Source of the DNA: an uncultured Gammaproteobacteria bacterium
GTDB lineage: Bacteria > Patescibacteriota > Microgenomatia > UBA10105 > UBA927
Reading direction: 5' to 3'
NCBI GenBank assembly: GCA_964527425.1
Contig: CAZGOA010000003.1
Location: 29,941 to 93,940 of the forward strand
DNA: 64,000 nucleotides
Below the pieces are notes generated by a model that was not told where the DNA came from, did no database searches, and worked only from the letters and a program-made list of their open reading frames with translations. The position numbers and the translations under genes are program-made. Positions 4,347-49,368 of the stretch are shown here, one piece after another. Numbering within the stretch: position 1 is the first letter of the stretch; every line of letters begins with the position of its first letter.

Positions 4347-4391
4347 CTTCCGATCCGGGATCGGTAGCCTCATCCGATCCGGGGTCGGAAG
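4347..4391. repeat. palindromic interspersed repeat, module-2 type (CTTCCGATCCGGGATCGG-TAGCCTC-ATCCGATCCGGGGTCGGAAG)
   Basis: Self-complementary CCGATCCGGGATCGG core, shared with at least 8 other loci in the window. Confidence 0.8.
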
Positions 4392-4458
4392 AAACTAGCC
4401 TATAATATTTGTGTTATTCCTTATTTTTCGTTATACTATCTATCCCTATACACTATCT

Positions 4459-5505
4459 ATGAATGAACAAAAGTCATTTAAACCGGATAATTTAGAATTT
4501 CAGATGTATCTATCTCGATTCAGTAATGATCATCCAGGTGTACTGGAAACATTTTGGCGTGATCCTCTGTTTTTAGATCATGTAACTTCATTACATATTA
4601 ATCCTGAAGCTCTTTCAAAACTCCAGAGACATGAAGTTGCCGCGACATTGATTGCACCACCTAGAATGAGGGCGGCATTTATGCATGGACCTATGCGGGC
4701 AATCCTTAGTCGGGTTGATTATGAAGGATATAGTAAATACTTAACTGACTATGCTCAGAGTACAATTTCAGGACAACAGTCATTCACCCAATCAAGATTC
4801 AATAGTGATTCTTTGAAATTTGCTTTTCAAACGCTAAATCGATTAGTTGACCCCTTGGTGAATAGCTATGGACAGCCAGTCTCAGACCTTCTTAACAACG
4901 ATCCATATCTGAATGCCAGATTTCGACTCTATACAAACCTACAATACCCAGAGGATGTACTGCGGGATAGTTTTCAAACATCTTATACTACCTATCAAAC
5001 AATACTTGAACGCTGTATTACTCATGCAAACGGCAGTCATGAATTTTCTTATCTCCATGCATCTAGTAATAGGGTCCGAGAACTGGCACACATACGACTA
5101 TTAAAAATGACTGATATAGCTCAAATTGCCAAAGGTCTCACCAGAACCAGTAACGGATTTGTAACCCCAGAACTTGTTACTCAAAGACAGCTATATAAGT
5201 GTATAGAGCTAAAAGACGATCATTTCGGACTAACTCATTCAACGGTTCAGGAGCTTAACACTCACTTGCGAAACCATAACCGCAGTATGGGTGATCCTGA
5301 AGAAAACGAAGGGTATATTCCTGAACTAGGCACATCATCGGGTTGTCCATTTGGACATGAAGGAAGTCAGCAACCGAGATATTCAGATAATCCGCTCGAG
5401 GTACAATACCTTCCTGCTCATTTGCGTCAGGACATTGTTGAACCTATAGATATCATACATCAGTGGATTTGCTTACTGGCAGAAGCTTATAACCAACATA
5501 TATGA
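4459..5505 (+). CDS. hypothetical protein, paralog A of a tandem pair (C-terminal TSSGCPFGH motif)
   Basis: Long ORF with no recognisable family. Its stop overlaps the start of the next gene (ATGA). It shares the motif ...TSSGCPFGHEGSQQPRYSD with the downstream paralog. Start set at MNEQKSF; the track ORF begins at 4411. Confidence 0.5.
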   Translation: MNEQKSFKPDNLEFQMYLSRFSNDHPGVLETFWRDPLFLDHVTSLHINPEALSKLQRHEVAATLIAPPRMRAAFMHGPMRAILSRVDYEGYSKYLTDYAQSTISGQQSFTQSRFNSDSLKFAFQTLNRLVDPLVNSYGQPVSDLLNNDPYLNARFRLYTNLQYPEDVLRDSFQTSYTTYQTILERCITHANGSHEFSYLHASSNRVRELAHIRLLKMTDIAQIAKGLTRTSNGFVTPELVTQRQLYKCIELKDDHFGLTHSTVQELNTHLRNHNRSMGDPEENEGYIPELGTSSGCPFGHEGSQQPRYSDNPLEVQYLPAHLRQDIVEPIDIIHQWICLLAEAYNQHI

Positions 5506-6704
5506 GAGAAGTACTAACAAATAATCCAAATACTGACTATATCTCATTATTGATACAAGACGCAAAAGACCGTCCAGACGATTATCCCTGCAATGGAGTA
5601 CAAGATTATACTCACGATCTTCGAACGATAGCGGCGTCTATGCTGGCAGATACAAGACTTGGTATTGAAATTGTTCCATACGGAAACACCATTAGAGTCA
5701 CAGTGCAACATAACTTAGTCGGTGAGATTGAGGATATTCCTGATATCAACACTGTTGATGCACTTATGACTATATTAAAGACCCATTATGCACCGGATCA
5801 TCTAAGAGGAGATTTTCATAAAACTGTAACTAATCGTTTACTCAGACAGACTCATTTACCACAGATTACTCGTACTGATATTACCAGTTTGGAGAGTGAA
5901 GAACATGCTATTGAAATGGACTATCTTCCAGACTACTTAACTCAACCTCATCGCTTACTCAATGCACTGTTTGTTCGAGTTGAGCAAACAGAAAATATAC
6001 CTGAAATTTGGAATCGTATTATCAGCCCAGACATTCTCAAAAAAGAGCCGGTTATCGCATTCAGACTTTATCAGTATGCGTATTATAATTCGTTCGATAC
6101 AATTATTTCAGACGGTGTGATTGGACAGGTTAAAATTACTCGGGCACTGTTATTTAGCATTATTGAACGCCTCGATCGAACCAATCCCATATATTCACCA
6201 GATATTCCTACAGCGCTTCACGCTGCGCAGTATATTCTGCGAAGTAAAAATTTTATGCACATGATGTTTGAATTAACACAGATACCAAATGGACATCTGA
6301 TTCCAGGCATCCAACATCCGCTATTACCGGACAATAGATGGCAATACTTTACCTCTAGTCTCCGTATATCTGATGGGGATATTGCGTTTACCGATCAGTA
6401 CCGTGAAGAATTGGATCGGAATATAAAAACACATAATAATCGTTCAGGTACTCTTCCTGACACTTTACGCAATAAGCCATATACAGTGTTAGAAGCTGCA
6501 ACTACGTCAGGTTGCCCACTCGGTCACGGAGCACCCAGTAAACAAACGTTTTCTGATGACAGAAATAACATCGCTTTTTTCCCAGATAAAGCACTAACAT
6601 CTGTAAACAAACACCCGATTATTAGCCTTAATGATACGTTAATTGACCTGATTGACATGGTAATCACTGATAAAGAACTTCAACAATCATTATTAGCATC
6701 ATAG
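5502..6704 (+). CDS. hypothetical protein, paralog B of a tandem pair (C-terminal TTSGCPLGH motif)
   Basis: 400 aa ORF translationally coupled to the upstream gene. Conserved block EAATTSGCPLGHGAPSKQTFSD. Confidence 0.5.
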   Translation: MREVLTNNPNTDYISLLIQDAKDRPDDYPCNGVQDYTHDLRTIAASMLADTRLGIEIVPYGNTIRVTVQHNLVGEIEDIPDINTVDALMTILKTHYAPDHLRGDFHKTVTNRLLRQTHLPQITRTDITSLESEEHAIEMDYLPDYLTQPHRLLNALFVRVEQTENIPEIWNRIISPDILKKEPVIAFRLYQYAYYNSFDTIISDGVIGQVKITRALLFSIIERLDRTNPIYSPDIPTALHAAQYILRSKNFMHMMFELTQIPNGHLIPGIQHPLLPDNRWQYFTSSLRISDGDIAFTDQYREELDRNIKTHNNRSGTLPDTLRNKPYTVLEAATTSGCPLGHGAPSKQTFSDDRNNIAFFPDKALTSVNKHPIISLNDTLIDLIDMVITDKELQQSLLAS

Positions 6705-6741: not shown

Positions 6742-7479
6742 ATGAACTCAATAAAATCATATTTAGTTATTCCTGTAGTATTTTTTGCTTTATTGTTTGT
6801 TTATTCAAAAATTGGCGGTCCTATTCCGCTTTCTGTCAACAGTGTTGTCACACAAAAGATGGATGCATTCACGGTATCTGGCGAGGGTAAGGTAAGTATT
6901 TCTCCTGATATGGCTGTTGTGACTATTGGCGTGCAGACAACAGGCAATACTGTTAAAGCAACTCAAAATGATTTAAATCGTCGTATTAACGCTGTAAGTG
7001 AAGCAGTTAAGAGATTGGGTATTTCTGACGCTGACATTCAAACGAGTAACTATTCGATTTATCCAGACTATGATTTTCAAGCTCCTTTACAAAGAATAAC
7101 TGGATATAACGCATCGAGTAATTTGGTGATTAACATTAAAGATCTTGATAAAACGAACGACGTGATTGATGCCGCAACAGCTCAAGGTGCAAATAGCGTC
7201 AGTGGTGTCACTTTTGATGTTGAGGATAAAGAAAAAGCACAAAATGAAGCTCGGGAATTGGCAGTTACTGATGCAAAAAAGAAAGCACAGACAGCTGCAA
7301 ATATCGCAGGATTTTCACTTGGGAAAATTGTAAACTACTCAGAAAATTTTGGTGGGGGAGGCATTGGCCCGCTTCCATATATGGCACGTGATATTGCATT
7401 AGAATCAGTCAAAACAGACGTTCAACCAGGATCTCAGGAAATACTAGTCAATGTGTCATTGAGTTATGAGATACAGTAA
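6742..7479 (+). CDS. SIMPL-domain protein (DUF541; YggE/26 kDa periplasmic immunogenic protein-like)
   Basis: N-terminal signal/TM segment followed by a SIMPL-like domain (VSGEGKVSISPDMAVVTIGV...NYSIYPDYDF...DAKKKAQTAANIAG). Confidence 0.6.
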   Translation: MNSIKSYLVIPVVFFALLFVYSKIGGPIPLSVNSVVTQKMDAFTVSGEGKVSISPDMAVVTIGVQTTGNTVKATQNDLNRRINAVSEAVKRLGISDADIQTSNYSIYPDYDFQAPLQRITGYNASSNLVINIKDLDKTNDVIDAATAQGANSVSGVTFDVEDKEKAQNEARELAVTDAKKKAQTAANIAGFSLGKIVNYSENFGGGGIGPLPYMARDIALESVKTDVQPGSQEILVNVSLSYEIQ

Positions 7480-7487
7480 CTCGGAAA

Positions 7488-8426
7488 TTACTTACGGTGA
7501 AACTTCTGATGAATATCTCGAAGTTGGGGGTTGGTGACATGGGTGTAAATTTGGGTAGTTGAAACGTTTTTGTGACCTAACATTTCTTGAATAGCACGTA
7601 AGTCTGCTCCATTGTGAAGTAAATCTGTAGCATAACTGTGTCTGAGTCCATGAGGAGTTATTTTGATGGGTAGTTTTGCCTTTTTTACATACTTTTCTAC
7701 CATTCTCTGAACGCTTCTGGCAGATAGTCTTAAGGATTCACCATCTTTATCATCCGGATCGGGGGTTGGTCCGTTATATCGAATAAATAAGGCCTTAGAA
7801 TCATCTCTTCTGTTTGAAAGATAACGAGTAACCCACTCAACAGCTGAATCTGATAAAAAGACAACTCGTGCCCTTCTTCCTTTTCCTATAACGCCAAATT
7901 CTTTCCGTTCAAAATTGATTTGATCTCTATTCAAACTCACTAATTCTGAAACACGAAGTCCTGTTGAGAACAATAATTCCAGTATCGCTTTATCTCTTAG
8001 TCCTTCTTCTTCTGATAGAGAAGGCATATTCAGCAGTCGATCAACATCACTTCGTTCTAAAAATTTTATACTTCTGCTTTCAGCTTTGGCTAGATCAATT
8101 TTCTCTGGATGGACTGTTTCGACATCCCGTTTCATCATATATTTAAGAAAAGATCTGACAGCTATTAAATGGTAATTTTGGGTAACTCTTTTTAAACTTA
8201 AGCCTTTTTCATCGACATAACGCGATAAAAATAATCGGTATTCACGAATCCGATCTGCTGTGAGATGACTAACCTGTAGTTGTTCGGGAGAGGAGGGGAG
8301 AGTCTGAGCTAAAAATCCTATAAGTCGAGATAAATAATGATGGTAATTACGAACGGTTAGTTGAGAAACATTTCGTTCAATTTCGAGGTATTCTAAAAAC
8401 TGTTTAACTGCTTCTGTTAATGGCAT
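7488..8426 (-). CDS. tyrosine site-specific recombinase, XerC/XerD family
   Basis: C-terminal catalytic box HGLRHSYATDLLHNGADLRAIQEMLGHKNVSTTQIYTHV (R..H..R..Y). Confidence 0.8.
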   Translation of the reverse strand: MPLTEAVKQFLEYLEIERNVSQLTVRNYHHYLSRLIGFLAQTLPSSPEQLQVSHLTADRIREYRLFLSRYVDEKGLSLKRVTQNYHLIAVRSFLKYMMKRDVETVHPEKIDLAKAESRSIKFLERSDVDRLLNMPSLSEEEGLRDKAILELLFSTGLRVSELVSLNRDQINFERKEFGVIGKGRRARVVFLSDSAVEWVTRYLSNRRDDSKALFIRYNGPTPDPDDKDGESLRLSARSVQRMVEKYVKKAKLPIKITPHGLRHSYATDLLHNGADLRAIQEMLGHKNVSTTQIYTHVTNPQLRDIHQKFHRK

Positions 8427-8485: not shown

Positions 8486-9094
8486 TTACTCAATAGTCCA
8501 AATGACAGGACGTTTGCGAGCATATTCAACTTCGTATCGTTTATATTGACTAAATTTAGTGTATGGCCAAATAGATACCTTTTTATCTACATAGTTCCCA
8601 TGAATAAGGAGTGGTTCTTTATGTTCATCATATTGTAAAAAGAGTGCGAGATGAGGACCTGGATACTGTAATTTTAAAGCTCTTTCTAATGCATCATTTC
8701 CTCGTATCTCATTTGGAATAGCCCGAAATTCTTTAATATTAGCCTGAGCAAAAAAGAATATATCTCCTAGCTGTAAGGGTTCATCTACCAATAAAGGACG
8801 TACATAGGGATTGGGTAAAATCATATGAACTGGATCGAGGGTAGGGGGCAGTTTATACGTAAATAATCTCTCTAATAAATAGTGAACTACATACACACAA
8901 TTCACTTCTGTTTGACCTTTTAGATAATATGGAACCTGATCGGGACTTTGGTGATAGTTATACGGCGCTCCCATTATTTCTTGTATGGCGTGATGTTGAG
9001 AAGTTTCGTGATTGAAAAAAGTTGTCTCCTTTAGAATGCTGTTAACTATACTAAATGTATATTTTTCTGACAACCCAAGAACCAGATGACGCAT
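8486..9094 (-). CDS. NlpC/P60-like (C40 papain-fold) hydrolase, no signal peptide
   Basis: Pattern NCVYVVHYLL...LQLGDIFFF...HLALFLQYDEHKEPLLIHGN resembles the Cys...GDL-FF...H-G-Y...H core of NlpC/P60. The track start at 9121 is an artefact of the adjacent repeat (MNVCIRDR encoded by repeat DNA), so the start is moved to MRHLVLG. Confidence 0.4.
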   Translation of the reverse strand: MRHLVLGLSEKYTFSIVNSILKETTFFNHETSQHHAIQEIMGAPYNYHQSPDQVPYYLKGQTEVNCVYVVHYLLERLFTYKLPPTLDPVHMILPNPYVRPLLVDEPLQLGDIFFFAQANIKEFRAIPNEIRGNDALERALKLQYPGPHLALFLQYDEHKEPLLIHGNYVDKKVSIWPYTKFSQYKRYEVEYARKRPVIWTIE

Positions 9095-9097
9095 AGT

Positions 9098-9296
9098 TCG
9101 ATCCCGGATGCAGACATTCATCCGATCCCGGATCGAGGTAAGATCTCCTTAAAGTTAGTTCATCTCGATCCGGGATGCAGACATTCGTCCGATCCCGGAT
9201 CGGAGTAAGATCTCCATAAAGTTAATTCATCTCGATCCGGGATGCAGACATTCGTCCGATCCCGGATCGGTAGCCTCTTCCGATCCCGGATCGGAA
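9098..9296. repeat. tandem array: 3 x ~65 bp units (39 nt hairpin module plus 26 nt near-identical linker) ending in the TAGCCTC plus module-2 palindrome
   Basis: TTCGATCCCGGATGCAGACATTCATCCGATCCCGGATCGAGGTAAGATCTCCTTAAAGTTAGTTCA, followed by TCTCGATCCGGGATGCAGACATTCGTCCGATCCCGGATCGGAGTAAGATCTCCATAAAGTTAATTCA, followed by a third copy, then TAGCCTCTTCCGATCCCGGATCGGAA. Confidence 0.85.
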
Positions 9297-9322: not shown

Positions 9323-10639
9323 ATGCCTGCCTATACCAGTAAACTTGTTGATCCTGGCGTGTGTATTGTATTTGCCTATGCTCCTGCTGGATTGGGTCAC
9401 TTACGAGTGACTGATGCGCTGTATCATGGTCTACCTCAGGAATGCGATCCAATGCTTTTGCCTGATACTGCTGTGTCTGTTAAGACTCTCCATAGGTTGA
9501 CAAGTAGTAATCCTTTTGCAAAGCGTTTTTTTGAATGGTCTCAGCAAGGAGTACCAGAAACGATTATTACGAGAATATATCGTTTCATGCTTCATCAGGA
9601 TGCCCGTTTCATGCAGAAACGATTATTAGAGTTATTAAAACAACGAATTCAATTACCTCATACATTGGTTATTGTAGCCACTCATTATGGTATTGCTCAC
9701 CAGGTATCTGTAATAAAAAAAGATCTAGAACGTTTAGGAAATGTTCGAGTGTTGCTCGTTGTTCAAGTAACAGATGATAGTCCTCAGAAACTCTGGTACG
9801 TACCACATGCCGATTTACTCTGTGTGCCAAGTGAATTTACATATACATCACTACAGACATATGGTAGATTGGAACATTTAGGCAAAAGTCGAATTGTTAT
9901 TCTTCCATATCCTGTGAGTCCACGCCTATTACAACCACGTTCTCAGCAAGATATGGACTTAGCGATGCATCAAACTGATCCGTTAAGTCAGGTGCTTATT
10001 CATACGGTAATCCCAATATCAGGTGCTGCAGTCGGAATACCATATTTGAGAAAATTGATGCATAAACTTCATACATTAGAACCCAGAATGCGATTTCATA
10101 TTATTGTAAAACGCTCAATATTTACCCTATCTGCAATCCGATCCTGGAAACGAAAAGGATATATGTATGTATATGAATCTCGTTCTGATAGAGAGATTAT
10201 TGATCTATATGAACGTGTATATGAGCAGGAAAAAATTGTATTGGAGATAACTAAACCATCTGAACAGTCATTTAAAGCACTTATTCCGCCCAACAGGCAA
10301 GGGGGGAGTATTTTACTTTTTGCACCTCCTGTTGGAAGACAGGAGTATGATAATGTAAGTTTTTTACAGCGTAATGGGTTAATCCCGTCTGGTGAGGAAT
10401 ATAGACAATTGTGCGACGTCTTGAATTTAGAACAAAATAGACCTATTCCATTACCCATATCCCATTGGCGCGGGTTTAGACTTTCTGATGATCCAGTCAT
10501 TGCAGCTAAATGGATAAGTCGTGCATTAACATTTAGGATTTTTCAGTCTATGATTTCTGGGAAAGAACATAAACGCTCAGATGAAGTGAGTCCTGAGGGT
10601 GTTGAGGAATTCTGGAAGCAAGTGGTGTCGTTGTTATAA
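9323..10639 (+). CDS. GT-B glycosyltransferase, MGDG-synthase/UgtP-like (GT28-related)
   Basis: N-terminal APAGLGHLRVTDAL resembles the GGGH..AA.AL motif of MGDG/diglucosyl-DAG synthases. LWYVPHADLLCVPSE resembles the GT28 C-terminal region. Confidence 0.45.
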   Translation: MPAYTSKLVDPGVCIVFAYAPAGLGHLRVTDALYHGLPQECDPMLLPDTAVSVKTLHRLTSSNPFAKRFFEWSQQGVPETIITRIYRFMLHQDARFMQKRLLELLKQRIQLPHTLVIVATHYGIAHQVSVIKKDLERLGNVRVLLVVQVTDDSPQKLWYVPHADLLCVPSEFTYTSLQTYGRLEHLGKSRIVILPYPVSPRLLQPRSQQDMDLAMHQTDPLSQVLIHTVIPISGAAVGIPYLRKLMHKLHTLEPRMRFHIIVKRSIFTLSAIRSWKRKGYMYVYESRSDREIIDLYERVYEQEKIVLEITKPSEQSFKALIPPNRQGGSILLFAPPVGRQEYDNVSFLQRNGLIPSGEEYRQLCDVLNLEQNRPIPLPISHWRGFRLSDDPVIAAKWISRALTFRIFQSMISGKEHKRSDEVSPEGVEEFWKQVVSLL

Positions 10640-20880: not shown

Positions 20881-20923
20881 TTCGATCCGGGATGCAGACA
20901 TCCGTTGAGATCCCGGATCGGAA
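20881..20923. repeat. solo hairpin module of the palindromic repeat family (TTCGATCCGGGATGCAGACATCCGTTGAGATCCCGGATCGG)
   Basis: Sequence identity to the repeat consensus. Lies immediately upstream of the MFS gene. Confidence 0.8.
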
Positions 20924-21574: not shown

Positions 21575-21652
21575 TTCGATCCGGGATGCAGAAATACTTC
21601 CGATCCCGGATCGGGTGAGGCTACCGAAATTCTTCCGATCCGGGATCGGAAT
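21575..21652. repeat. composite repeat: hairpin module plus linker plus module-2 palindrome
   Basis: TTCGATCCGGGATGCAGAAATACTTCCGATCCCGGATCGG-GTGAGGCTACCGAAATT-CTTCCGATCCGGGATCGGAA. Overlaps the last ~11 codons of the minus-strand ORF 21621..22325. Confidence 0.8.
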
Positions 21653-24482: not shown

Positions 24483-24518
24483 ATCGGGATGGAGACATCC
24501 GTTCCGATCCCGGATCGG
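24483..24518. repeat. degenerate solo hairpin module (ATCGGGATGGAGACATCCGTTCCGATCCCGGATCGG)
   Basis: Matches the repeat consensus. Lies between tRNA-Leu and dnaB. Confidence 0.7.
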
Positions 24519-39232: not shown

Positions 39233-39428
39233 CTCGATGCAGAAATACTTCAGACCCTGGATCGGTTTAGGCTTCATCTCGATCCGGGATGCAGACATTC
39301 GTCCGATCCCGGATCGGTATAGGCTTCTCGGTGTTTGAATGCATAATTCGATCCCGGATGCAGACGTCCGTCCGATCCGGGATCGGTATAGGCTGTATAG
39401 GCTCGACTCTTCCGATCCGGGATCGGTA
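39233..39428. repeat. array of 3 hairpin modules (one degenerate) with GTATAGGCT-type linkers, ending in a module-2 palindrome
   Basis: CTCGATGCAGAAATACTTCAGACCCTGGATCGG...TCTCGATCCGGGATGCAGACATTCGTCCGATCCCGGATCGG...TTCGATCCCGGATGCAGACGTCCGTCCGATCCGGGATCGG...CTTCCGATCCGGGATCGGTAG. Confidence 0.85.
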
Positions 39429-46954: not shown

Positions 46955-47021
46955 TTAGGAGTAAATCAGTTTCTGTATCATTTTTACTGTAGAAAAAGGA
47001 GGTTTAGAAGCAACAAAAACA

Positions 47022-47195
47022 ATAAGAGCGTGTGGTCCGTCTTCTTAGACGGAATACGAGGAAAGGGCCCCTATGGGGAATCGAACCCAAGATAAACTCT
47101 TGGAGAATCAGCGGAAACCCTTCGGTTGTAACGTACAATCGTGACAAATGACTAAAATCTTTCTGGTAACAGATTGGACAAAGGTTTTTTGAATA
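47022..47195 (+). ncRNA. structured 5' leader of glmS; candidate glmS ribozyme/riboswitch
   Basis: Five perfect or near-perfect hairpins (CCGUCU-ucuu-AGACGG, CCCC-uau-GGGG, GGG-aaucgaa-CCC, CCAAGA-uaaac-UCUUGG, GUUGUA-acg-UACAAU). ACGAGGAAAGGG plus the downstream CCCUUCGG resembles the glmS-ribozyme GACGAGGAGGAGG...CCUCC pseudoknot. GGACAAAGG resembles the conserved UGAACAAAG. Confidence 0.3.
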
Positions 47196-47322
47196 CGTTT
47201 GCTTCTTTATACTACTCATTACTACGATTTATCTTTAACGTATCTTGGAAGAATAATTGCTCAATTACTGCGTCCTAACATGAGGAATGTAATTATTCTG
47301 CAAGATACTCGACTTTACCTAT

Positions 47323-49101
47323 ATGTGTGGAATATTTGGATATGTTGGTCCTAAAACAAATGCTGCAAATGTAATCCTGAAAGGGTTGAAAACGCTTGAG
47401 TATAGAGGGTATGACTCCTGGGGTGTTGCTGTGGTTCCAAAAGACCCGAAAAAGCAGCATATTATGCTCAAAAAAAAGTCAGGGAAAATTGGTGATGCAA
47501 CGGTAACAGATTTGCCTGCTTCATCTTTTGGATTTGGCCATACTCGATGGGCTACGCATGGGGGTGTCACAGATGTAAATGCTCATCCTCATGTGGATTG
47601 TACGAAAAAAATCGCCATTATTCATAATGGAATCGTTGAAAATTATGAACAGCTAAAAGAAAAATTATCAAAAAAAGGTCATACATTTTCTTCTGAAACT
47701 GATACAGAAGTGATTGTCCACTTGATTGAGGAATATGCAAAAAAAACAATGTTTAGTAAAGCGGTACAAAAAGCCTTTAATGAATTGGTAGGATTAAATG
47801 CAATTATTGCTATTAATACTATTGACCAGGTTTTTGTTGCTGCGCGTAATGGATCCCCCTTGGTGATTGGATTTGGTGAGGATGAAAATTTTTTGGCGAG
47901 TGATGCTGCTGCAATTATTCCGTACACAAAGCAGGTTCACTACTTAGAAGATGGTGAAATGGCTCTGGTAGGAAAAAGTGGAGTTTCTATTTTTGAAGCC
48001 AAAACTGGCAAAAATATTCATCCGAAAAAACAACTCTTAACATGGACTGTTGCACAAGCAGAAAAAGGGAGATATCCATTTTTCATGTTAAAAGAAATTC
48101 ATGAACAACCTGGGATATTGGTTGATATAGCAACTAATAGTGTAAATCACGCAGAACATTTAGCCAATGCTATTAAACATTCATTTGGTGGATATTTAAT
48201 TGGCTGTGGGACTGCTGCTTTTGCATGTATTGCTGGCACATATTTATTTTCCAAAATTGCTAAGCGACATATGAACTGGGCTATAGGGAGTGAATTCCCC
48301 TATTCTCAAGATTTTTTGACGGGAAAAAGCTTAGTGATTGCTTTGTCTCAGTCAGGCGAAACCATGGACACCATTGAGGCTGTAAAGCAGGCTAAACAGA
48401 AAGGGGCAACCTTGGTTGCGATGGTAAATGTTTTGGGATCAACGCTGTACCGTATGGCGGATCACAAAATATTGCTTTCTGCTGGTCCAGAAAAAGGTGT
48501 TGCCTCTACAAAAGCGTTTACTGCCAAACTTGGTCATTTGTTATTACTTGCTACTGCGCTTGATAATAATGTCTCCTACGGAAAAACGTTAGTACTACAT
48601 GCGGCAAAAGCAACTCAAAAGATATTAAGAAAGGAGAATCGAGCAAAAATTGAGGAACTAGCTAACAAGATTATGAAGACTCCTCATATATATGTTGTAG
48701 GAAGGGGTCTTTCCTACCCTGCTTCTCTTGAAACAGCTCTGAAGATAAAAGAAATTTCTTATATTCATGCTGAAGGGTTAGCGGGTGGTGAGTTAAAACA
48801 TGGGGCTTTAGCGTTAGTTGAGAAAGGAACACCCTGTATTGTGATTGCACCACCTGATGAAACATATCAAGATACGCTGGCTGGGGCAATGGAAATGAAA
48901 GCGAGAGGTGGATATATTATTGGTCTTTCTAATAAACCACATGATGTGTTTGATTATTACTTACCTGTTCCGTATGTGCAGGAGGCAACTATTATTCCCA
49001 ATATTGTGACAGCACAATTATTGGCATATTACTTAACCATTCATAAAGGATTTGACCCTGATAAACCAAGGAATTTGGCTAAGAGTGTGACGGTAAAGTG
49101 A
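47323..49101 (+). CDS. glmS: glutamine--fructose-6-phosphate aminotransferase
   Basis: N-terminal MCGIFGYVG (Ntn Cys) followed by two SIS domains. Confidence 0.9.
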   Translation: MCGIFGYVGPKTNAANVILKGLKTLEYRGYDSWGVAVVPKDPKKQHIMLKKKSGKIGDATVTDLPASSFGFGHTRWATHGGVTDVNAHPHVDCTKKIAIIHNGIVENYEQLKEKLSKKGHTFSSETDTEVIVHLIEEYAKKTMFSKAVQKAFNELVGLNAIIAINTIDQVFVAARNGSPLVIGFGEDENFLASDAAAIIPYTKQVHYLEDGEMALVGKSGVSIFEAKTGKNIHPKKQLLTWTVAQAEKGRYPFFMLKEIHEQPGILVDIATNSVNHAEHLANAIKHSFGGYLIGCGTAAFACIAGTYLFSKIAKRHMNWAIGSEFPYSQDFLTGKSLVIALSQSGETMDTIEAVKQAKQKGATLVAMVNVLGSTLYRMADHKILLSAGPEKGVASTKAFTAKLGHLLLLATALDNNVSYGKTLVLHAAKATQKILRKENRAKIEELANKIMKTPHIYVVGRGLSYPASLETALKIKEISYIHAEGLAGGELKHGALALVEKGTPCIVIAPPDETYQDTLAGAMEMKARGGYIIGLSNKPHDVFDYYLPVPYVQEATIIPNIVTAQLLAYYLTIHKGFDPDKPRNLAKSVTVK

Positions 49102-49347
49102 GGATCTGTGCAGACAGTTTATCTTGATTAACCCGGTTTTTTTGTGTATTACGATCCGGGATGCAGACATTCGTCCGATCCCGGATCGGTGGAAGGATTA
49201 TCTGATAAACCAAGGAATTTGGCTAAAAGTGTGACGGTAAAGTGAAGATGTATAGGTACGGTTTATCTTGATTGTTCCGGTTTTTGATTATCACGATCCG
49301 GGATGCAGACATTCGTTGAGATTCAGGATCGGTAGCCTCAGCCTCTT
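49060..49347 (+). repeat. 2 x 144 bp tandem direct duplication of the glmS 3' end plus downstream hairpin module
   Basis: GATAAACCAAGGAATTTGGCTAA(G/A)AGTGTGACGGTAAAGTGA...TTTATCTTGATT...CGATCCGGGATGCAGACATTCG occurs twice, at 49060 and 49204. The second copy retains an out-of-context ...DKPRNLAKSVTVK stop remnant. Confidence 0.7.
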
Positions 49348-49368
49348 TCTTCCGATCCCGGATCGGAA
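49295..49368. repeat. hairpin module (degenerate right arm) plus TAGCCTC linker plus module-2 palindrome
   Basis: CGATCCGGGATGCAGACATTCGTTGAGATTCAGGATCGG-TAGCCTCAGCCTCTTT-CTTCCGATCCCGGATCGGAA. Confidence 0.8.

What the first reader, a model, noticed from the sequence alone, without database searches (positions are those of the whole stretch)
4459..6704. Translationally coupled pair of paralogous large hypothetical proteins sharing a TSGCP[FL]GH...SD motif
Two consecutive ORFs, 349 and 400 aa, with an ATGA stop/start overlap and no detectable family or TM segments, share a conserved C-proximal block: ELGTSSGCPFGHEGSQQPRYSD versus EAATTSGCPLGHGAPSKQTFSD. The rest of each protein has diverged strongly. 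A Cys-Pro-x-Gly-His block could be a metal, heme (CP motif) or cofactor binding site. The arrangement is a diverged tandem duplicate pair held in one operon. It sits between housekeeping genes (folD upstream, SIMPL downstream) and is the best candidate in the window for an uncharacterised lineage-specific system.
Basis: seen in the sequence. Interest (0 to 1): 0.55.

Follow-up and report, generated by a model that had tools for sequence, protein, structure and literature searches.

The report
Orphan paired cysteine-motif proteins in Gottesmanbacteria
Two adjacent, overlapping genes in an uncultured Gottesmanbacteria (candidate phyla radiation) genome encode distantly related copies of a protein family found almost nowhere else, built around one invariant cysteine; the genes are real but their function could not be established.

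Summary
ORF A (4459-5505, 348 aa) and ORF B (5502-6704, 400 aa) overlap by ATGA and are true paralogues (BLASTP E=7e-9; profile-profile 95.9%). No Pfam, NCBIfam, PHROGs, PADLOC or PDB-sequence match was found. Two AlphaFold models were poor (pLDDT 35 and 46), so no fold could be assigned.

The genome is a Candidatus Gottesmanbacteria MAG. An exhaustive profile search of 1.84 billion representatives found 7 family members. All located members (four of the seven, plus members of the other three clusters) lie on short contigs, most with neighbours closely related to this window's.

The coupled tandem pair recurs in three divergent lineages (four counting the window's 59-63% orthologue). One further locus holds a single copy. 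In other Gottesmanbacteria folD abuts the SIMPL gene, so the pair is an insertion.

The invariant core of the motif is T-x-x-G-C-P. The His is nearly invariant and the "SD" is not conserved. Both genes evolve fast (dN/dS 0.32-0.56, versus 0.01-0.16 for neighbours), and one strain has a nonsense codon in B.

My best guess, with low confidence, is a soluble hetero-oligomer whose Cys-Pro loops ligate a metal or haem-like cofactor. It is an orphan family of moderate interest.

The parts
4350..4388 (.). Doublet of a dispersed REP-like palindrome (CCGATCCGGGATCGG - TAGCCTCA - TCCGATCCGGGGTCGG), between the folD stop (4302) and the cassette.
   Evidence: direct repeat D1; hits at 16 positions in the window (30 counting both strands) versus 0.03 expected. 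The same palindrome lies upstream of the cassette on L005, L089 and L092.
4399..4406 (+). CCTATAAT, a -10-like box 52 nt upstream of the ATG of ORF A. It is the probable promoter of the two-gene cassette.
   Evidence: Read from the sequence. A CCTATAAT box precedes the first gene on L088, L089 and L092 as well (L005 has CCTATATAA). The consensus scan did not list it because it has no -35 match. Promoter function is inferred.
4459..5505 (+). ORF A, 348 aa. A soluble, predicted mostly alpha-helical family member that lacks the beta-rich N-terminal segment present in B.
   Evidence: Independent gene calls on Logan contigs give the same 348-aa product. dN/dS is 0.36-0.43.
4654..4680 (+). Conserved block A-P-P-x-x-R-x-x-F of ORF A (A66-F74). 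R71 and F74 are invariant across the family.
   Evidence: alignment A2.
5137..5157 (+). Conserved block L-T-x-x-x-N-G of ORF A (L227-G233). T228 and N232 are invariant.
5332..5358 (+). Motif TSSGCPFGH of ORF A. T292, G295, C296 and P297 are invariant across the family.
   Evidence: This is the most conserved 15-residue block of the alignment.
5502..5505 (+). ATGA: the start codon of B overlaps the stop codon of A (translational coupling).
   Evidence: Equivalent overlaps occur on L088 and L091 (ATGA) and on L005 (8 nt).
5502..6704 (+). ORF B, 400 aa, the paralogue of A.
   Evidence: dN/dS is 0.32-0.56. A strain with 94% nucleotide identity (L092) carries TGG->TGA at codon 170.
6501..6527 (+). 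Motif TTSGCPLGH of ORF B. C338 is the only Cys of B that is conserved in its orthologue.

Best explanation
ORF A and ORF B are two subunits of a lineage-restricted, fast-evolving, soluble and mainly alpha-helical protein family. They are made in fixed proportion from one transcript and most likely act as a hetero-oligomer.

Shown:
- The two proteins are paralogues.
- The start/stop overlap is conserved.
- The cassette has its own conserved -10-like box.
- The distribution is very narrow, and the cassette is an insertion into a conserved gyrA-bcp-folD-SIMPL-xerC backbone.
- Fifteen residue positions beyond the start Met are invariant, nine of them polar, and both copies retain them.
- dN/dS is elevated.

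Inferred:
- The functional centre is the invariant cysteine of the T-x-x-G-C-P-(hydrophobic)-x-His loop. This loop sits in a polar segment of variable length between the last two predicted helices.
- Each subunit offers this Cys (usually with the His) as a thiolate ligand for a metal-containing cofactor: haem in the manner of a Cys-Pro haem regulatory motif, or a Zn/Fe/Cu centre shared between the two loops.
- The complex would then sense, buffer or use that cofactor. This may be linked to thiol or oxidative stress, given that the peroxiredoxin gene bcp lies within one gene of the cassette in three of the four loci where its surroundings are visible.
For: Paralogy.

Coupling conserved in four lineages.

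Invariants R71, F74, R154, Y158, D170, T228, N232, N274, T292, G295, C296, P297, P319, P329 and I330 are kept in both copies of every pair.

The Cys stands out.
- GCP is unique to these two sites in the window.
- L088 copy 1 has this Cys as its only Cys.
- B's only conserved Cys is this one.

Motif context.
- Both AlphaFold models place the motif in coil between helices, at low confidence.
- The flanks carry indels.
- CP haem motifs typically lie in loops with polar S/T residues upstream, and only the Cys-Pro is essential (PMC10377097).
- Irr has Gly-Cys-Pro-Trp-His-Asp (PMC11442138).

His content is 3.3-7.1% against a window median of 2.5%.

bcp lies directly beside the cassette on L088 and L089 and one gene away in the window.
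Against: - No binding evidence of any kind exists.
- From general knowledge of candidate phyla radiation genomes, they usually lack haem biosynthesis and respiratory cytochromes, which makes a haem role less likely. I did not check this for this genome.
- The His is absent from one member (L091 copy 1) and shifted in P0012.
- Nine invariant polar residues spread along the chain look more like an enzyme pocket than like a short linear motif.
- The link to bcp may be inherited synteny only, because bcp-folD-SIMPL exists without the pair in relatives.
- Hetero-oligomer formation is inferred from gene overlap alone.
- The high dN/dS, the variable position and copy number, and a nonsense allele fit a conflict or accessory role better than a core sensor.
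Confidence: 0.3

Rival explanations
1. The family is an enzyme with a cysteine nucleophile or redox-active cysteine. It acts in a conflict or interaction role, such as an effector against the host cell or a competitor, or an unrecognised defence function. The invariant Cys attacks a substrate, and the invariant Arg, Tyr, Asp, Asn and Thr residues form the pocket. The two paralogues are either both active or specialised for different targets.
For: - Nine invariant polar residues are retained in both copies despite about 20% identity.
- dN/dS is 0.32-0.56, which is 3 to 30 times that of neighbouring genes.
- Location varies around bcp/folD/rplJ, and there is a solo extra copy (L089).
- One strain carries a nonsense allele.
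- The taxonomic range is extremely narrow.
Against: - No similarity to any peptidase, transferase or defence family in Pfam, NCBIfam, PADLOC or PHROGs.
- No signal peptide or TM segment.
- The cassette is not found on phages, plasmids or viral contigs.
- The Cys appears to lie in a polar, loop-like segment that tolerates indels.
Confidence: 0.25
2. The proteins are non-enzymatic structural or scaffold components, for example a helical hetero-oligomer of the cell envelope or cytoskeleton of this clade. T-x-x-G-C-P is a conserved structural turn or an inter-subunit contact and not a ligand or nucleophile.
For: - The predicted architecture is almost all alpha-helical.
- Coupled expression of paralogues is typical of obligate heteromers.
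- Gly and Pro flank the Cys.
Against: - An invariant Cys in Cys-poor proteins is rarely purely structural in the cytoplasm.
- The invariant residues are polar or charged, not hydrophobic core positions.
Confidence: 0.15
3. The ORFs are decaying or spurious genes, remnants of an insertion with no current function.
For: - B carries a premature TGA in one strain, on a contig seen in three samples.
- dN/dS is relatively high.
- The genes are absent from all other Gottesmanbacteria examined.
Against: - Both reading frames stay intact at 59-63% amino-acid identity with dN/dS 0.32-0.36, clearly below 1.
- Motifs and the start/stop overlap are preserved among members only 20-30% identical.
- Intact long ORFs recur on independent contigs from several samples.
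Confidence: 0.05

Closest known systems
Cys-Pro (CP) haem regulatory motifs, e.g. [quoted passage not shown]
   Same: Gly-Cys-Pro followed by a hydrophobic residue and a nearby His. Polar Ser/Thr residues lie just upstream. The motif is apparently in a loop between helices. Only the Cys-Pro is strictly kept.
   Different: Here the motif is embedded in a unique 350-420-aa family with many other invariant residues. No haem binding has been shown. From general knowledge, the host lineage is not expected to make haem. A CP motif is a short pattern, not a homologous family, so the resemblance is only a lead.
Co-transcribed paralogous heterodimers, e.g. phycobiliprotein alpha/beta subunits or PaaA/PaaC (own knowledge, used as a working analogy only)
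   Same: Adjacent, co-expressed, anciently duplicated helical subunits. In phycobiliproteins each subunit carries a conserved Cys that holds a cofactor.
   Different: There is no sequence or detectable fold similarity. Sizes differ. Cofactor attachment is not shown here. Heterodimer formation is inferred only from gene overlap.
Lineage-specific 'hypothetical' protein families of candidate phyla radiation bacteria (own knowledge: such genomes hold many families without homologues elsewhere)
   Same: Restricted to a narrow clade, no annotation, embedded among housekeeping genes of a small genome.
   Different: This case has unusually clear internal structure: a conserved coupled paralogue pair, a defined invariant cysteine motif, its own conserved promoter-like box, and a measurable elevated evolutionary rate.

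Membership tests
CP-type haem regulatory motif (HRM) proteins | Cys-Pro dipeptide that supplies the axial thiolate | tested here: met
   G-C-P is invariant in all 10 aligned family members.
CP-type haem regulatory motif (HRM) proteins | [quoted passage not shown] | tested here: inconclusive
   Both AlphaFold models put the motif in coil between helices, but local pLDDT is 24-34. The flanks are polar and carry indels.
CP-type haem regulatory motif (HRM) proteins | Reversible Fe(III)-haem binding (Soret shift to about 370 nm), lost on Cys mutation | not testable with these tools
   This needs purified protein or peptides and spectroscopy.
Cytochrome P450 and other thiolate-haem enzymes | F-x-x-G-x-R-x-C-x-G Cys-ligand loop, E-x-x-R motif, and a P450 profile match | tested here: not met
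   No Pfam or PDB-sequence hit for any member. The sequence around the Cys is T-S-S-G-C-P-F-G-H.
Thioredoxin-fold thiol proteins (peroxiredoxin P-x-x-x-T-x-x-C; glutaredoxin/DsbA C-P-x-C) | Thioredoxin-fold profile match, alpha/beta fold, and the motif at the N-terminus of a helix after a beta-strand | tested here: not met
   No Pfam hit, while the neighbouring Bcp gene product is recognised as AhpC-TSA. The predicted structure is almost all helical and the motif lies in coil. The spacing is T-x-x-x-C, not T-x-x-C.
Known anti-phage defence systems (PADLOC-DB) | Significant match to a defence protein model | tested here: not met
   The best hit is JetD at E=0.02, 11.7 bits, in 2 of 10 members, which is noise.
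Phage or plasmid-borne genes | Homologues on phage, viral or plasmid records | tested here: not met
   PHROGs gives nothing below E=0.038. IMG/VR, INPHARED and PLSDB give no relatives.
Cysteine peptidases and transglutaminase-like enzymes | Profile match, and a Cys-His-Asp/Asn triad on a papain-like or related fold | tested here: inconclusive
   No profile match. Cys, Asp and Asn are invariant but the His is not. The fold could not be determined.

The most novel reading that the evidence does not exclude
The pair is the founding example of a new class of heteromeric thiolate-ligand proteins. Each paralogue contributes a Cys-Pro loop to a shared haem or metal site, which would let a symbiotic, haem-auxotrophic candidate phyla radiation bacterium sense or capture a cofactor obtained from its host.
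Probability: 0.1. Interest if true: 0.65.

Novelty: categorically new. Interest (0 to 1): 0.4.

Why it matters
If the cysteine loop binds a cofactor or is catalytic, this would be a new protein fold family with a new active-site signature. It would come from a group of bacteria whose biology is largely unknown and whose dependence on host cells is poorly understood.

Its fast evolution, variable position and copy number make it a candidate marker of host interaction or conflict in Gottesmanbacteria.

The 'new' label rests on the absence of any detectable relative, not on a demonstrated new mechanism. The family is also confined to a very small clade, which limits its general importance.

Tried and rejected
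1. Sequence-family assignment. Pfam, NCBIfam, PHROGs and PADLOC were scanned with A, B and all ten family members, and PDB sequences with single proteins and a profile. Nothing was significant.

2. Structure.
- AlphaFold2 of B with 5 sequences gave pLDDT 35.4.
- AlphaFold2 of A with 10 sequences gave pLDDT 45.7.
- The afdb50 library was unavailable.

3. More relatives.
- The GTDB genome scan, JGI metagenomes, IMG/VR, phages and plasmids held none.
- The word-indexed search with the 10-member profile returned only the five close members.

4. A third copy in the window or near gyrA in 80 related loci. None was found. The only sub-threshold hit (9535-9774, E=0.61) is an out-of-frame ORF inside the 438-aa gene that happens to read SSGCPFH. 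It shows no extended DNA similarity to the motif sites by eye.

5. P450, thioredoxin-fold/peroxiredoxin, thymidylate-synthase-like (P-C-H), E2-like (H-P-N...C) and formylglycine (C-x-P-x-R) motif ideas. All were rejected on motif spelling, spacing or predicted secondary structure.

6. The GTG at 4411 as the start of A. It lies 4 nt after the TATAAT box, and the orthologue N-termini align from the ATG at 4459.

7. Assigning A-type and B-type orthology across lineages. This is not resolved. The two copies on L088, and the two on L091, are each other's best matches.
Full report
**1. What is in the sequence**

ORF A runs 4459..5505 (348 aa, ATG) and ORF B runs 5502..6704 (400 aa), both on the + strand. 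The junction reads CAT ATA TGA / ATG AGA, an ATGA overlap.

A longer reading of A from GTG 4411 is unlikely. A TATAAT box sits at 4401-4406, just 4 nt before that GTG. Orthologues align from the ATG at 4459, and independent gene calls give 348 aa.

**2. Is the similarity real**

- A versus B by BLASTP gives E=7e-9, 22% identity over about 205 residues.
- A profile of the A orthologues against a profile of the B orthologues gives 95.9% probability, E=5.7e-9.
- Both A and B match the two proteins of a more distant locus (L088) at E=1e-18 to 1e-24 over 216-310 residues, so homology spans most of the chain.
- Cys is rare in this genome at 0.67%. The tripeptide GCP occurs only at these two sites in 18,416 residues of long ORFs.

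**3. Whose genome**

GyrA of the window is 76% identical, at best, to Candidatus Gottesmanbacteria MAGs (Microgenomates, Patescibacteria/CPR). The surrounding genes are ordinary housekeeping genes:
- gyrA, bcp, folD, a SIMPL-domain gene and xerC;
- yebC, tgt, a pseudouridine synthase gene, lgt and an MFS transporter gene.

**4. How widespread is the family**

- Word-indexed searches of 5.8 billion clusters found only the proteins themselves and 59-63% (and 90%) orthologues.
- An exhaustive HMMER profile search of 1.84 billion representatives returned seven proteins.
- GTDB species genomes, JGI metagenomes, IMG/VR, INPHARED phages and PLSDB plasmids hold none.
- The located members (four of the seven representatives, plus members of the clusters of the other three) all lie on short SRA-assembly contigs. 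For three of these lineages the neighbours are much closer to the window (FolD 63-83% identical) than are the nearest GTDB Gottesmanbacteria (FolD 39-47%). The fourth lineage (L090/L091) could not be placed this way, because its neighbours rplJ and rplL have no counterpart in the window.

**5. Anatomy conserved across lineages**

| Locus | Arrangement | Junction |
|---|---|---|
| Window (same arrangement on L001-L004) | tandem pair | ATGA overlap |
| L092 (94% nucleotide identity) | tandem pair; B interrupted by TGA at codon 170 | not examined |
| L005 (59-63% amino-acid identity) | tandem pair | 8-nt overlap |
| L088/L093 | tandem pair between bcp and folD | ATGA |
| L090/L091 | tandem pair upstream of rplJ-rplL | ATGA |
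| L089 | single copy (P0012) directly upstream of bcp-folD | none |

- L089 comes from the same sample as L005 and shows matching divergence from the window (FolD 83%, SIMPL 86%). It is probably the same genome, which would then hold three copies.
- A CCTATAAT box precedes the first gene in the window, L088, L089 and L092 (L005 has CCTATATAA). In the window's closer relatives a REP-like palindrome lies just before it.
- In six other Gottesmanbacteria genomes folD is followed by the SIMPL gene after only 42-98 nt. The family HMM finds nothing within 10 kb of gyrA in any of 80 related loci, and no third copy in the window.
- The cassette is therefore an insertion into a conserved backbone. Its position has shifted between lineages while staying close to bcp/folD.

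**6. Conservation pattern**

In a 10-member alignment with about 20% identity between subfamilies, the invariant residues in A numbering are R71, F74 (in A-P-P-x-x-R-x-x-F), R154, Y158, D170, T228, N232 (in L-T-x-x-x-N-G), N274, T292, G295, C296, P297, P319, P329 and I330.

The His at +4 from the Cys is absent in L091 copy 1 (GCPAAK) and displaced by one residue in P0012 (GCPLGVH). The 'SD' is confined to the window's lineage.

The motif block is the most conserved 15-residue stretch. It lies in a polar segment with indels, followed by a second conserved element, (D/N)-P-x-x-(V/I)-x-(Y/F/W)-x-P.

All members are hydrophilic, with pI 5.4-7.3 and no TM-like segment. L088 copy 1 has the motif Cys as its only Cys. 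His content is 3.3-7.1% against a window median of 2.5%, a modest enrichment.

**7. Evolutionary rate**

| Genes | dN/dS, window vs 94%-identical strain (L092) | dN/dS, window vs 60% orthologues (L005) |
|---|---|---|
| A and B | 0.43-0.56 | 0.32-0.36 |
| SIMPL | 0.16 | 0.09 |
| XerC | 0.01 | 0.03 |

All values are from Nei-Gojobori estimates. The genes are under purifying selection, so they are real genes, but they evolve 3 to 30 times faster than their neighbours.

In L092, on a contig seen in three samples, codon W170 of B is TGA. B may therefore be dispensable in that strain, or the assembly may carry an error.

**8. Structure**

AlphaFold2 gave pLDDT 35.4 for B (5 sequences) and 45.7 for A (10 sequences). 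The two models agree only at the level of secondary structure in the C-terminal half:
- helices;
- one beta-hairpin (A 249-258, B 287-296, which are aligned positions);
- a helix ending in H-N;
- a long coil that carries the motif;
- a terminal helix.

**9. Mechanism**

Shown:
- a paralogous pair with conserved overlap and its own promoter-like box;
- a narrow distribution;
- invariant polar residues retained in both copies;
- a unique invariant Cys.

Inferred:
- The two products assemble in a fixed ratio.
- Both are functional and neither is a degenerate partner, because both retain all the invariants.
- The Cys is the functional centre.

I commit, at about 0.3, to the Cys-Pro loops acting as thiolate ligands for a haem or metal cofactor.
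- For: the loop resembles CP haem regulatory motifs. Irr has Gly-Cys-Pro-Trp-His-Asp (PMC11442138). CP motifs sit in loops with polar S/T residues upstream, and only the Cys-Pro is essential (PMC10377097). That fits the dispensable His seen here.
- Against: from general knowledge, CPR bacteria generally lack haem synthesis and cytochromes. In addition, the many invariant polar residues suggest an enzyme pocket.

The main rival, at about 0.25, is a Cys-dependent enzyme in a conflict or host-interaction role. That would fit the fast evolution, the mobility within the locus, the copy-number variation and the nonsense allele.

A purely structural role (0.15) and a decaying-gene reading (0.05) are less likely. 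The remainder is unassigned.

**10. Comparison with what is known**

Nothing known is a relative. The closest resemblances are by analogy only: CP haem motifs for the loop, and co-transcribed paralogous heterodimers for the gene arrangement. P450, thioredoxin-fold, defence-system and phage-protein memberships were tested and not met (see the membership table).

**11. Verdict**

This is a real, orphan family of coupled paralogues with a defined cysteine signature, confined to a small clade of Gottesmanbacteria.

It counts as new only because no relative can be detected. Its mechanism is unknown and its distribution is narrow.

Interest is 0.4. It is a sound candidate for expression and spectroscopy, but not in itself a surprising discovery.

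Noticed in passing
window 4350-4388, 9122-9294, 20907-20921, 21600-21649, 24504-24518, 39251-39426, 49175-49189, 49352-49366: A dispersed REP-like palindrome, CCGATCC(C/G)GGATCGG, hits at 16 positions in the window (30 counting both strands) versus 0.03 expected. All positions checked lie in intergenic gaps. It is often part of a longer unit of about 45 nt (tcGATCCGGGATgcagacattcgtCCGATCCCGGATCGG). Three tandem copies with period 67 lie at 9122-9270. Related contigs (L005, L089, L092) begin at this element, so it is also repeated in those genomes.
   Followed up: partly
L092:1130-2332 (strain with 94% nucleotide identity to window 5502-6704): ORF B carries TGG->TGA at codon 170, on a contig reported from three samples. 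Gene callers split it into 169-aa and 195-aa products. It could be a strain-level pseudogene, read-through, or an assembly error.
   Followed up: partly
window 8486-9121 (-) and 9323-10639 (+): Two further genes have no convincing family: a 211-aa gene, and a 438-aa gene with only a weak MGDG-synthase-like hit (E=0.018). tblastn found no counterpart of either within about 10 kb of gyrA in the related Gottesmanbacteria loci examined. They are separated by the REP-like tandem array, which coincides with a local GC spike of 0.45.
   Followed up: partly
window 47016-47201 (+): A glmS ribozyme/riboswitch (Rfam RF00234, 54.8 bits, above the gathering score) lies upstream of the 592-aa ORF at 47323-49101.
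   Followed up: no
L089 and L005 (both from sample SRR31740698): A solo family member (P0012) sits upstream of bcp-folD on L089, and the A'/B' pair sits upstream of SIMPL-xerC on L005. Their divergence from the window matches (83% and 86%). They may be adjacent parts of one genome, broken at the REP repeat, which would give three family copies around bcp-folD.
   Followed up: partly
window 4459-6704 versus 6742-8426: Synonymous divergence of A and B between the window and L092 (dS 0.08-0.11) is less than half that of the adjacent SIMPL and xerC genes (0.21-0.26), while dN is equal or higher. This could reflect recent recombination of the cassette between strains, nucleotide-level constraint, or sampling noise.
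   Followed up: no
window 9592-9612 (frame of the 80-aa ORF 9535-9777, inside the 438-aa gene): An out-of-frame ORF reads SSGCPFH, mimicking the family motif (HMM E=0.61). By eye there is no extended DNA similarity to the true motif sites, so it is most likely coincidence.
   Followed up: yes
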